Position numbers: made by a program
Shown here: positions 44,601-47,600 of the stretch, one piece after another
Position numbering within the stretch: the first letter of the stretch is position 1
How the letters are laid out: each line of letters begins with the position of its first letter
Assembly (NCBI RefSeq): GCF_044324875.1
Contig: NZ_CP172185.1
DNA length: 64,000 nucleotides
Source of the DNA: Escherichia coli
GTDB lineage: Bacteria > Pseudomonadota > Gammaproteobacteria > Enterobacterales > Enterobacteriaceae
Reading direction: 5' to 3' (one strand)

Positions 44601-47600
44601 GCAGTGGCACTGGAAAGGTCAGGATGCGCCGGGCGAAGCGCGTAACGACGGCGAAATTCTGGCGGGTATCTACCATCATCTGCGCGAGCTGTACCAGGCC
44701 GAAGGTGGTAAAGGCGTAGAACCGCTGATGAAGATGAGCTGGAACTACAAGCAGCCGCACGAACCGCAGTCTGACGAAGTGGCGAAAGAGAATAACGGCT
44801 ATGCGCTGGAAGATCTCTATGATGCTAATGGCGTGCTGATTGCGAAGAAAGGTCAGTTGCTGAGTAGCTTTGCGCATCTGCGTGATGACGGTACAACCGC
44901 ATCTTCTTGCTGGATCTACACCGGTAGCTGGACAGAGCAGGGCAACCAGATGGCTAACCGCGATAACTCCGACCCGTCCGGTCTGGGGAATACGCTGGGA
45001 TGGGCCTGGGCGTGGCCGCTCAACCGTCGCGTACTCTACAACCGTGCTTCGGTGGATATCAACGGTAAACCGTGGGATCCGAAACGGATGCTGATCCAGT
45101 GGAACGGCAGCAAGTGGACGGGTAACGATATTCCGGACTTCGGCAATGCCGCACCGGGTACGCCAACCGGGCCGTTTATCATGCAGCCGGAAGGGATGGG
45201 ACGCCTGTTTGCCATCAACAAAATGGCGGAAGGTCCGTTCCCGGAGCACTACGAGCCAATTGAAACGCCGCTGGGCACTAACCCGCTGCATCCGAACGTG
45301 GTGTCTAACCCGGTGGTTCGTCTGTATGAACAAGACGCGCTGCGGATGGGTAAAAAAGAGCAGTTCCCGTATGTGGGTACGACCTATCGTCTGACCGAGC
45401 ACTTCCACACCTGGACCAAGCACGCGTTGCTCAACGCAATTGCTCAGCCGGAACAGTTTGTGGAAATCAGCGAAACGCTGGCGGCGGCGAAAGGCATTAA
45501 TAATGGCGATCGTGTCACTGTCTCAAGCAAGCGTGGCTTTATCCGGGCGGTGGCGGTGGTAACGCGCCGTCTGAAACCGCTGAATGTAAACGGTCAGCAG
45601 GTTGAAACGGTGGGTATTCCAATCCACTGGGGCTTTGAGGGTGTCGCGCGTAAAGGTTATATCGCTAACACTCTGACGCCGAATGTCGGTGATGCAAACT
45701 CGCAAACGCCGGAATATAAAGCGTTCTTAGTAAACATCGAGAAGGCGTAAGGGGGCGAACAGATGGCTATGGAAACGCAGGACATTATCAAAAGGTCCGC
45801 AACTAACTCCATCACGCCGCCTTCTCAGGTGCGTGATTACAAAGCAGAAGTCGCGAAACTTATCGACGTTTCCACCTGTATCGGTTGTAAAGCCTGTCAG
45901 GTGGCGTGTTCGGAGTGGAACGACATCCGTGATGAAGTGGGGCACTGCGTCGGGGTTTACGATAACCCCGCCGATCTGAGCGCCAAGTCCTGGACGGTGA
46001 TGCGCTTTAGCGAAACCGAACAGAACGGCAAGCTGGAGTGGCTGATCCGTAAAGACGGCTGTATGCACTGTGAAGATCCGGGCTGCCTGAAGGCGTGCCC
46101 GTCTGCTGGTGCAATCATTCAGTACGCTAACGGGATTGTCGATTTCCAGTCGGAAAACTGCATCGGCTGTGGTTACTGCATTGCCGGGTGTCCGTTTAAT
46201 ATTCCGCGCCTCAACAAAGAGGATAACCGGGTATATAAATGCACGCTCTGCGTCGATCGCGTCAGCGTCGGCCAGGAACCGGCTTGTGTGAAAACCTGTC
46301 CGACCGGGGCTATCCACTTCGGCACCAAGAAGGAGATGCTGGAGCTGGCGGAACAGCGCGTGGCGAAACTGAAAGCGCGTGGTTACGAACATGCTGGCGT
46401 CTACAACCCGGAAGGGGTCGGTGGTACGCACGTTATGTACGTGCTGCATCACGCCGATCAGCCGGAGCTGTATCACGGTCTGCCGAAAGATCCGAAGATC
46501 GACACCTCGGTAAGCCTGTGGAAAGGCGCGTTGAAACCGCTGGCAGCGGCTGGCTTTATTGCCACTTTTGCCGGGTTGATTTTCCACTACATCGGTATTG
46601 GCCCGAATAAGGAAGTGGACGATGACGAGGAGGATCATCATGAGTAAGTCGAAAATGATTGTGCGCACCAAATTTATTGATCGCGCCTGTCACTGGACCG
46701 TGGTGATTTGCTTCTTCCTGGTGGCGCTGTCCGGGATTTCGTTCTTCTTCCCGACGCTGCAATGGCTGACGCAAACCTTCGGTACGCCGCAGATGGGACG
46801 CATTTTGCACCCGTTCTTCGGCATTGCGATTTTCGTCGCGCTGATGTTTATGTTTGTGCGTTTTGTGCATCACAACATCCCGGATAAGAAAGATATTCCG
46901 TGGCTGTTGGACATTGTCGAAGTATTAAAAGGCAATGAGCACAAAGTGGCGGATGTCGGTAAGTACAACGCCGGGCAAAAGATGATGTTCTGGTCGATCA
47001 TGAGCATGATTTTCGTGCTGCTGGTGACCGGGGTGATTATCTGGCGTCCGTACTTTGCGCAGTACTTCCCGATACAGGTTGTCCGTTATAGCCTGCTGAT
47101 CCACGCGGCTGCGGGTATCATCCTGATCCACGCCATCCTGATCCATATGTATATGGCATTCTGGGTGAAAGGATCGATTAAAGGGATGATCGAAGGAAAG
47201 GTGAGCCGTCGCTGGGCGAAGAAACACCATCCACGCTGGTATCGTGAAATCGAGAAGGCGGAAGCGAAAAAAGAGAGTGAAGAAGGGATATAATCTCTTT
47301 TGAACTTTAAGCTGAAAATGGCGCTGTAAAAGGCGTCATTTTCATATTGTAGACAACGTAGGCTTTGTTCATGCCGGATGCGGCGTGACGCCTTATCCGG
47401 CCTACAAACCCTTCAAATCCAATAGATTGCAGTGAACTTGTAGGCCTGATAAGCGTAGCGCATCAGGCAATGTTGCGTTTGTCATCAGTTCTAAATGGCG
47501 CTTTATAAAGCGCCATTTTTTTGTGCACAGAAAACCCCCAGCTAGGCTGGGGGTTCCGGAAAGCTTTCAGCTTTGAGCCAGTTATTAAAACCCCTTTTGA

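What the first reader, a model, noticed from the sequence alone, without database searches (positions are those of the whole stretch)
47318..47523. Two sequence-related terminator hairpins bracketing a BIME downstream of fdnI
The hairpin at 47318..47346 and the perfect palindrome at 47493..47523 share the core aaatggcgc…gcg.catttt, and both are followed by T-runs. They flank a pair of REP elements. This could be a duplicated terminator or a small repeat family, and the second copy lies at the approximate left boundary of IS200.
Basis: seen in the sequence. Interest (0 to 1): 0.3.

Follow-up and report, generated by a model that had tools for sequence, protein, structure and literature searches.

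The report
Duplicated terminator hairpin flanking inserted BIME-1
The two similar hairpins are two copies of the single old terminator between fdnI and yddM, apparently duplicated when a roughly 150-base repeat element (BIME-1) inserted there; the pair now lets this stretch vary in copy number between E. coli strains, and the same duplicated-hairpin signature at other BIME-1 sites hints at how these elements insert.

Summary
A 26-27 nt direct repeat (47316-47341 and 47493-47518, 85% identical, 177 nt apart) brackets a 151-nt BIME-1 at 47342-47492.

It is not chance and not a dispersed repeat family. In 5,426 complete E. coli genomes the hairpin occurs only at this locus.

The locus has 1, 2, 3 or 5 hairpins, with 0, 1, 2 or 4 BIME-1 copies. 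The repeat period is 177-178 bp, so this is a variable-number tandem repeat. Citrobacter species have a single orthologous hairpin, so one bidirectional terminator is ancestral.

The hairpin is locus-specific, but the arrangement recurs:
- BIME-1 copies at mgtA/ridA and gloC/aspC, and more weakly mngB, are each bracketed by two copies of their own local stem-loop.
- gloC/aspC has a single-hairpin empty allele.
- A Citrobacter element with the same termini but a different interior sits in the fdnI terminator between perfect 21-nt hairpin duplicates.

I infer that insertion occurs just 3' of a terminator stem and duplicates the stem-loop. Later unequal recombination would then change the copy number.

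IS200 (about 47522-48232) lies inside the T-run of the distal hairpin. All 9 IS200 sites I examined sit in the same position behind a terminator.

The finding itself is ordinary. The recurring hairpin-length duplication may be new.

The parts
46640..47293 (+). fdnI, the last gene of fdnGHI. Its transcript runs into the hairpins.
   Evidence: ORF list. Annotated as fdnI in homologous records.
47313..47344 (+). Hairpin 1, the proximal copy of the duplicated terminator stem-loop. The repeat core is 47316-47341. It lacks a clean T-run and abuts the BIME-1 left end.
   Evidence: Fold -18.1 kcal/mol, z = -4.3. Direct repeat D1. Flank-repeat test 0 of 2000 shuffles.
47342..47492 (+). Complete BIME-1 (151 nt). 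Outer A-like motif 47342-47372, Y REP 47373-47405, L linker with IHF-like site 47406-47439, Z1 REP 47440-47468, outer B-like motif 47469-47492.
   Evidence: Aligns end to end with BIME-1 copies at fepA/entD, gloC/aspC, mgtA/ridA and mngB (A4). The outer motifs recur at other loci. Folds as one long hairpin as ssDNA, z = -3.8. Weak Rfam hits to the REP-derived families naRNA4 and ES036.
47493..47522 (.). Hairpin 2, the distal copy. Perfect 26-nt palindrome 47493-47518 plus a T7 run 47516-47522. It has an A-tract 5' and a T-tract 3', so it looks like a bidirectional fdnI/yddM terminator. It was also the IS200 target.
   Evidence: terminator-like on +. In IS200-free alleles it is followed directly by the yddM stop codon.
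47522..48232 (+). IS200 (711 bp, ends ambiguous by about 2 nt within T's). Left-end terminator hairpin 47533-47555, 5'UTR/art200 region 47533-47656, tnpA 47666-48124, right-end hairpin 48206-48224.
   Evidence: Empty-site comparison. Rfam STnc490 146 bits. tnpA annotated as IS200C in records with the same insertion. Published IS200 numbering places the hairpin at nt 12-34 (PMC4513863).
48232..48516 (-). yddM (HigA-family antitoxin), convergent with fdnI. In IS200-free alleles its stop codon touches the T-run of hairpin 2. Here it abuts the IS200 right end.
   Evidence: ORF list. Annotation in homologous records. Terminator-like site on the minus strand at 48224-48206.

Best explanation
Ancestrally, one A-tract/GC-stem/T-tract hairpin lay between the convergent genes fdnI and yddM and served as a bidirectional intrinsic terminator.

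A complete BIME-1 then inserted immediately 3' of the stem, between the stem and its T-run. BIME-1 here means the outer A motif, a Y REP, an IHF-type linker, an inverted Z1 REP and the outer B motif, about 150 nt in all. The stem-loop ended up on both sides of the insert, like a target-site duplication whose length equals the stem-loop (26 nt here).

Because they are direct repeats 177 nt apart, unequal recombination or replication slippage between them adds or removes whole hairpin-plus-BIME-1 units. That gives alleles with 1, 2, 3 or 5 hairpins across E. coli.

The distal copy kept the T-run and remains the strong terminator. Later, IS200 integrated inside that T-run.

Shown:
- The paralogy of the hairpins and the copy-number series.
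- That a single hairpin is ancestral.
- Recurrence of the arrangement at other loci.
- The IS200 junction.

Inferred:
- That the duplication arose in the insertion event itself.
- My model for it: each DNA strand is cut just 3' of its own stem-loop and joined to a 5' end of the two-fold-symmetric element. This is the polarity of HUH/Y1 enzymes such as the REP-associated transposase.
- That recombination between the hairpins drives the copy-number change.
- That the hairpins terminate transcription.
For: (1) Copy-number series
- Alignment A1 and motif mapping show alleles with 1 hairpin and 0 BIME, 2 and 1, 3 and 2 (K-12), and 5 and 4 (strain NT1W22).
- Tandem Repeats Finder gives period 178 with 4.2 copies at 98% match, and 2.2 copies in MG1655.
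- In an evenly spaced sample of 60 of 5,414 records: 21 with 1 hairpin, 5 with 1 hairpin plus IS200, 20 with 2 hairpins, 11 with 3, and 1 with 5.

(2) Locus restriction
- The 38-nt hairpin query matches only next to yddM, at most 4 places per genome.

(3) Outgroups
- Citrobacter portucalensis, C. werkmanii and Citrobacter sp. FP75 have one hairpin with the same arm (ATGGCGCTAC..GTAGCGCCATTTTTTT). In FP75 it is followed directly by a yddM homologue.
- Escherichia sp. MOD1-EC7003 has one hairpin identical to the E. coli one-hairpin allele.
- E. albertii and a divergent E. coli have two hairpins plus the BIME.

(4) The BIME flanks are part of the element
- They recur at other loci, a median of 5-6 places per genome, and align end to end.

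(5) Recurrence with different, locus-specific hairpins
- mgtA/ridA, gloC/aspC and mngB each have two copies of their own stem-loop abutting the element ends within 0-1 nt.
- Shuffle tests gave 0/2000, 0/2000 and 16/2000.
- gloC/aspC is polymorphic (2,811 of 5,426 genomes occupied), and the UTI89 empty allele has exactly one hairpin.

(6) Independent event in the orthologous terminator
- C. amalonaticus L024 has a 142-nt element with the same termini but an unrelated interior, flanked by a perfect 21-nt hairpin duplication. Another C. amalonaticus is empty.
- A metagenome contig (L130) shows the same element type with a duplicated hairpin.

(7) Element symmetry
- The two 5' ends are alike: top strand TCAGATTGTTGACAAAG, bottom strand GAGACTGATGACAAACG.

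(8) IS200
- IS200-free alleles keep hairpin 2 intact.
- All 9 distinct IS200 sites examined lie directly behind a hairpin and T-run. Eight have perfect stems. About 4% of random positions have such a hairpin.
Against: - Two of the six distinct E. coli BIME-1 loci examined do not show the duplication. tsx/yajD has the hairpin on the A side only, with a truncated B end. fepA/entD has no hairpin on either side. One metagenome element (L173) also has none.
- The mngB duplication is degenerate.
- An 'empty' allele can arise either because insertion never happened or by deletion between the two hairpins. Empty sites therefore do not by themselves prove the direction of the event.
- The two-hairpin state is old (present in E. 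albertii), so the original event at fdnI cannot be reconstructed directly.
- No enzyme was tested. A duplication of 20-27 nt that tracks stem-loop length is not a documented property of any transposase I know of.
- I could not read Gilson 1991 or Bachellier 1997, which may already describe or contradict this.
Confidence: 0.75

Rival explanations
1. The BIME-1 inserted beside the terminator without duplicating anything. A later local partial tandem duplication (A-B to A-B-A, by slippage or illegitimate recombination) created the second hairpin, perhaps kept because each convergent gene benefits from an adjacent terminator.
For: The locus clearly undergoes unit gain and loss. Most duplicated cases lie between convergent genes (fdnI/yddM, mgtA/ridA, gloC/aspC). 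Some BIME-1 copies have no duplication.
Against: This needs the same rare secondary event, with breakpoints exactly at the element ends, at four or more loci and in Citrobacter, where the 21-nt copies are still perfect. The gloC/aspC alleles differ by exactly the element plus one hairpin, and the sample showed no 'BIME but single hairpin' intermediate.
Confidence: 0.15
2. The hairpin is a component of a small dispersed repeat family, or of the BIME itself, copied around the genome.
For: The two copies share 22-23 of 26-27 positions. The BIME flanks turned out to be repeated elsewhere.
Against: The hairpin query hits only the fdnI-yddM locus in 5,032 genomes. Other BIME-1 copies are flanked by unrelated, locus-specific hairpins. 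The orthologous single hairpin exists in Citrobacter without any BIME.
Confidence: 0.02
3. The two hairpins are unrelated GC-rich terminators that resemble each other by chance or by convergence on the A-tract/GGCGC-stem/T-tract terminator design.
For: Unrelated terminators can look similar. The creD terminator AAAAACGGCGCTAAAAAGCGCCGTTTTTTT shares the GGCGC..GCGCC core.
Against: Shuffles predict 0.03 matches. Strains with 3 and 5 copies have internal hairpins inside 95-98% identical 178-bp units. The copy-number series and the single-hairpin outgroups show common descent.
Confidence: 0.01
4. Hairpin 2 belongs to IS200, or was generated by the IS200 insertion.
For: It touches the IS200 left boundary, and IS200 has its own left-end hairpin nearby.
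Against: IS200-free alleles carry the same hairpin 2 followed by the yddM stop codon. IS200 copies elsewhere start at TGTGCACAG with different upstream hairpins. Published numbering puts IS200 nt 1 at about 47522.
Confidence: 0.01

Closest known systems
BIME-1 (also called RIP or RIB: a Y REP and a Z1 REP in inverted orientation around an IHF-binding L linker)
   Same: It has Y and Z1 palindromic units, a conserved linker with an IHF-like site, a size near the published ~140 bp, a position at the 3' end of transcription units, and presence/absence polymorphism between strains. These match the descriptions in PMC3333891 and PMC1187871 and the alignment.
   Different: BIME-1 is described as occurring in single copies. 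Here it is tandemly repeated up to 4 times because the repeat unit includes a non-BIME terminator hairpin. The papers I could read do not mention the flanking hairpin duplication.
Tandem REPIN clusters that include flanking sequence (Pseudomonas fluorescens SBW25; Bertels and Rainey 2011)
   Same: These are arrays of nearly identical REP-doublet units 'including the flanking sequences' (PMC3116915). No formation mechanism had been proposed for them (PMC3337134).
   Different: This is a different organism and a different REP family. Here the repeated flank is identifiable as the duplicated terminator stem-loop, which supplies a plausible recombination substrate.
Target-site duplications of transposable elements and MITEs
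   Same: Direct repeats of host sequence abut both ends of an element with inverted-repeat-like termini, and empty alleles hold one copy.
   Different: The length is not fixed. It is 20-27 nt and equals the local stem-loop. IS200/IS605-family elements, the relatives of the REP-associated transposase, make no duplication at all.
IS200 (IS200/IS605 family) and its association with upstream terminators
   Same: The element is 711 bp with a left-end terminator hairpin, the art200/STnc490 region and tnpA, and it makes no duplication. A 2025-26 preprint reports terminator-like sequences enriched just upstream of IS200/IS605 elements.
   Different: Here the junction is resolved to the base. The IS lies inside the T-run of a host terminator, with tnpA pointing the same way as the terminated gene, at all 9 sites examined. 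This particular combination of two hairpins plus IS200 is absent from 5,426 complete genomes.

Membership tests
Intrinsic (Rho-independent) terminator | A stable GC-rich stem-loop just downstream of a stop codon | tested here: met
   Both hairpins fold at -16 to -18 kcal/mol with z about -4. Hairpin 1 starts 20 nt after the fdnI stop codon.
Intrinsic (Rho-independent) terminator | An uninterrupted U/T tract immediately 3' of the stem | tested here: inconclusive
   Hairpin 2 has T7 and was flagged by the scan. Hairpin 1 has only TTTTCATATTG and was not flagged.
Intrinsic (Rho-independent) terminator | Transcripts end at the site | not testable with these tools
   This needs 3'-end mapping (Term-seq or a Northern blot).
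BIME-1 / RIP / RIB | One Y REP and one Z1 REP in inverted orientation, separated by the long L linker | tested here: met
   Y REP 47373-47405, L linker 47406-47439, Z1 REP 47440-47468. Inverted repeat I3. Aligns with five other such elements. Definition from PMC3333891.
BIME-1 / RIP / RIB | IHF binds the L linker | not testable with these tools
   The linker sequence (TCAAATCCAATAGATTG) is conserved with other copies (AAATTCAATATATTG). Binding was not tested.
BIME-1 / RIP / RIB | Occurs as a single copy per locus, unlike BIME-2 | tested here: not met
   There is one copy in the window, but 2 copies in K-12 and 4 in NT1W22 at the same locus.
Variable-number tandem repeat | Head-to-tail units whose number differs between strains | tested here: met
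   Period 177-178 bp with 0, 1, 2 or 4 full units.
   The hairpin is found only at fdnI-yddM in E. coli genomes.
Transposon-type target-site duplication | Host-derived direct repeats abut both element ends, and the empty site has one copy | tested here: met
   Seen at fdnI, gloC/aspC (empty allele UTI89) and C. amalonaticus fdnI (empty allele L026).
Transposon-type target-site duplication | A fixed, short duplication length set by the transposase | tested here: not met
   Lengths are 26, 22, about 20 and 21 nt, each equal to the local stem-loop. There is no duplication at fepA/entD.
IS200 | About 707 bp, left-end terminator hairpin at nt 12-34, 5'UTR stem and art200, Y1 tnpA, no target duplication | tested here: met
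   711 bp. Hairpin 47533-47555. STnc490 146 bits. tnpA annotated IS200C at the same site. No duplication in the empty-site comparison.

The most novel reading that the evidence does not exclude
BIME-1 and related enterobacterial elements share the termini TCAGAYTG..GACAAAG and GTTTGTCATCAsTCTC. The reading is that these elements integrate specifically just 3' of intrinsic-terminator stems and duplicate the whole stem-loop.

The duplication would arise because both strands of the palindromic target are cut 3' of their hairpin and joined to the symmetric element's two 5' ends.

If so, this is the first in-genome footprint of how REP/BIME elements insert. It would also explain why tandem REPIN-plus-flank arrays form, and why BIME-1 copies appear to be lost precisely.
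Probability: 0.35. Interest if true: 0.7.

Novelty: new variant of a known kind. Interest (0 to 1): 0.45.

Why it matters
For this locus, the result explains an odd-looking pair of terminators. It also shows that the fdnI-yddM spacer is a common length polymorphism in E. coli, with alleles of 1, 2, 3 or 5 hairpins. That polymorphism could alter 3'-end formation of fdnGHI and of the yddM antitoxin gene.

More broadly, how REP/BIME elements move is still unknown. A 2026 preprint calls the in vivo mechanism 'not fully established'. A host stem-loop duplicated exactly at the element ends, seen at several loci and in two genera, is a concrete junction signature that a transposition assay could test.

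The result also links two hairpin-seeking elements at one terminator. BIME-1 sits between the stem and the T-run and comes with a duplication. IS200 sits inside the T-run and makes none.

Tried and rejected
- Tandem Repeats Finder on the window itself found nothing relevant, because there are only 1.15 copies. The repeat became visible only in K-12 and NT1W22.
- I first thought the duplicated segment extended to TATTG and carried the yddM stop codon. I rejected this once other BIME-1 copies showed that TCAGATTG is the conserved element end.
- The other BIME in the window (26623-26723) shares the two REPs but not the outer motifs and shows no flank duplication. It is not informative.
- The mgtA/ridA BIME-1 is fixed in E. 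coli, so no empty allele was available there.
- Comparing IS200 sequences to decide between one or two insertions at this site was inconclusive. The window's copy differs from the same-site copy in strain 7/2 at 5 of 711 positions, against 2-8 for copies at other sites.
- The metagenome scan with the left-terminus pattern gave mostly chance or truncated hits. Only 6 of 88 had a recognisable right end.
- Gilson 1991 and Bachellier 1997 are not held in the paper library. Two literature searches returned nothing relevant or failed on a formatting error.
- The MG1655 record annotates no repeat feature in this spacer.

Full report
**What is in the window**

fdnI ends at 47293. Hairpin 1 follows 20 nt later at 47313-47344, a 13-bp stem at -18.1 kcal/mol. 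Hairpin 2 is a perfect 26-nt palindrome at 47493-47518, followed by seven T's up to 47522 (-16.2 kcal/mol). Both fold far better than shuffled sequence.

The repeat finder reports a 27-nt direct repeat, 47316-47342 against 47493-47519, 85% identical and 177 nt apart. The shared pattern with up to two mismatches occurs nowhere else in the 64 kb apart from one weak site. Shuffles predict 0.03 matches.

A Y REP (47373-47405) and an inverted Z1 REP (47440-47468) lie between the hairpins. Only hairpin 2 passes a simple terminator scan.

**The two hairpins are the ends of a variable tandem repeat**

I compared the locus across 5,426 complete E. coli genomes and found a copy-number series:
- One hairpin and no BIME.
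- Two hairpins and one BIME, as in the window.
- Three hairpins and two BIMEs (K-12).
- Five hairpins and four BIMEs (strain NT1W22).

Tandem Repeats Finder gives period 178 with 4.2 copies at 98% match in NT1W22, and 2.2 copies in MG1655.

An evenly spaced sample of 60 of 5,414 matching records broke down as follows:

| Allele | Records |
|---|---|
| 1 hairpin | 21 |
| 1 hairpin + IS200 | 5 |
| 2 hairpins | 20 |
| 3 hairpins | 11 |
| 5 hairpins | 1 |
| Hairpin 1 precisely deleted | 1 |
| Partial match | 1 |

A 38-nt hairpin query finds only this locus in E. coli. The 'small repeat family' reading therefore fails, and chance similarity is excluded.

**A single hairpin is ancestral**

Loci encoding FdnI were recovered from species-representative genomes and read downstream of fdnI:
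- Citrobacter portucalensis, C. werkmanii and Citrobacter sp. FP75 have one terminator with the same arm (ATGGCGCTAC...GTAGCGCCATTTTTTT). In FP75 it is followed directly by a convergent yddM homologue.
- An Escherichia sp. has one hairpin identical to the E. coli one-hairpin allele.
- E. albertii and a divergent E. coli have hairpin-BIME-hairpin, so that arrangement is old.

**The BIME is a complete element with its own ends**

The sequences between the hairpins and the REPs are not local spacer. They recur at other loci, a median of 5-6 places per genome.

The 151-nt segment 47342-47492 aligns end to end with elements at fepA/entD, gloC/aspC, mgtA/ridA, mngB and tsx/yajD. This fits the published BIME-1: Y plus Z1 plus an IHF-type L linker, about 140 bp.

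As single-stranded DNA it folds into one long hairpin. Its two 5' ends are alike: TCAGATTGTTGACAAAG on the top strand and GAGACTGATGACAAACG on the bottom.

**The hairpin-element-hairpin arrangement recurs with different hairpins**

At three other E. coli loci the element is bracketed by two copies of that locus's own stem-loop, abutting the element ends within 0-1 nt:

| Locus | Left copy | Right copy | Shuffles reaching the score (of 2000) |
|---|---|---|---|
| mgtA/ridA | CTGGGCATGGTGGCCCGGA | CCGGGCATGATAGCCCGGA | 0 |
| gloC/aspC | AGCCCGCTTTTAATGCGGGC | AGCCCGCTTTTCAGCGGGCT | 0 |
| mngB (degenerate) | AAGCCACATAT... | AAGCCACGTAT... | 16 |

The fdnI locus also gave 0 of 2000.

gloC/aspC is polymorphic, with 2,811 of 5,426 genomes occupied. 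The empty UTI89 allele has exactly one hairpin.

In C. amalonaticus, a 142-nt element with the same termini but an unrelated interior sits in the orthologous fdnI terminator. It lies between perfect 21-nt hairpin copies, while another C. amalonaticus strain is empty. A metagenome contig shows the same element type with a duplicated hairpin.

There are exceptions. tsx/yajD has the hairpin on one side only, with a truncated right end. fepA/entD and one metagenome copy have no hairpin.

**Interpretation**

In every duplicated case, the copy on the A-motif side ends at the stem and the copy on the B-motif side keeps the T-run. The simplest reading is that insertion occurs between the stem and the T-run and duplicates the stem-loop.

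A duplication whose length follows the stem-loop suggests structure-directed cutting on both strands, each just 3' of its hairpin, followed by joining to the element's two similar 5' ends. This is the polarity used by HUH/Y1 enzymes such as the REP-associated transposase. That is inference; no enzyme was tested.

Once two direct copies exist, unequal recombination or slippage explains the 178-bp unit gains and losses, and the 'precise' loss of BIME-1. Published accounts describe BIME-1 as single-copy and either present or absent between isolates. They note tandem REPIN-plus-flank arrays without offering a mechanism. I found no description of the hairpin duplication, but I could not read the two key older papers.

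**IS200**

Empty-site comparison places IS200 at about 47522-48232 (711 bp, no duplication), inside the T-run of hairpin 2 and touching the yddM stop codon. Rfam finds STnc490 at 47533-47656. The left-end hairpin matches the published nt 12-34.

All 9 distinct IS200 sites fetched from other genomes lie directly behind a host terminator hairpin and T-run, with tnpA pointing the same way as the terminated gene. Eight have perfect stems, against about 4% of random positions. A recent preprint reports the statistical association.

About 302 genomes carry IS200 at this site, all in the one-hairpin background. The window's combination of two hairpins plus IS200 is absent from the collection.

**Verdict**

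The finding is real and its 'duplicated terminator' reading is right. As a locus feature it is a variant of known things: a BIME-1 polymorphism and a tandem REP array. The recurring stem-loop-length duplication at BIME-1 ends is the part that may be new and is worth a systematic census.

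Noticed in passing
window 47522-48232; loci L001, L011-L018: IS200 lies immediately behind a host terminator hairpin and T-run at all 9 distinct sites examined. tnpA is always co-oriented with the terminated gene, and most sites are between convergent genes (creD/arcA, ompX/opgE, wzzB/hisIE, plaP/sbcB, yfeX/pbp4b).
   Followed up: partly
window 47400-47640: The window's combination (two hairpins, a BIME-1 and IS200 at fdnI-yddM) is not present in any of 5,426 complete E. coli genomes. IS200 at this site is otherwise seen only with the one-hairpin allele. Strain BEC1-S17-ESBL-09 (L007) has the same BIME unit without IS200.
   Followed up: partly
L006 (E. coli TUM17668) 330-345: In this allele hairpin 1 alone is cleanly deleted (gaactt|TCATATTG), leaving the BIME-1 and hairpin 2. 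It is an example of palindrome loss.
   Followed up: no
L024 2198-2339 (Citrobacter amalonaticus); L130 (metagenome), minus strand, 6010-6151 in reverse-complement coordinates: These are 142-nt elements with BIME-1-like termini but a different interior: two other hairpins and a perfect IHF consensus, AATCAATCAATTG. Each is flanked by a duplicated local stem-loop.
   Followed up: partly
L119 1391-1445; L135 5046-5099; L162 352-413: In metagenome contigs of 41-48% GC there are short (54-62 nt) perfect palindromic elements, TCAGACTGTmGACAAAG...CTTTGTCkACAGTCTGA, sitting directly against terminator-like hairpins. Their relationship to the BIME-1 termini is unclear.
   Followed up: no
window 48206-48224, minus strand: The IS200 right-end hairpin followed by TTTTTCAAAT reads as a terminator on the minus strand. 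It now sits where the yddM transcript used to meet hairpin 2.
   Followed up: no
window 48516-48794, minus strand: A RelE/ParE-family toxin gene overlaps the start of yddM (HigA-family antitoxin). It is present in the window and some strains but absent in K-12-like genomes, where adhP follows yddM directly.
   Followed up: no
window 26623-26723: There is a second Y-linker-Z1 BIME in the window. It lacks the outer A and B motifs and has no flanking hairpin duplication.
   Followed up: partly
NZ_CP098231.1 833720-833957 (E. coli XJ34): Another locus matches the window's BIME-hairpin-IS200 junction over 240 nt at 89.7% identity. This suggests an IS200 behind a BIME-1-associated terminator elsewhere.
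   Followed up: no
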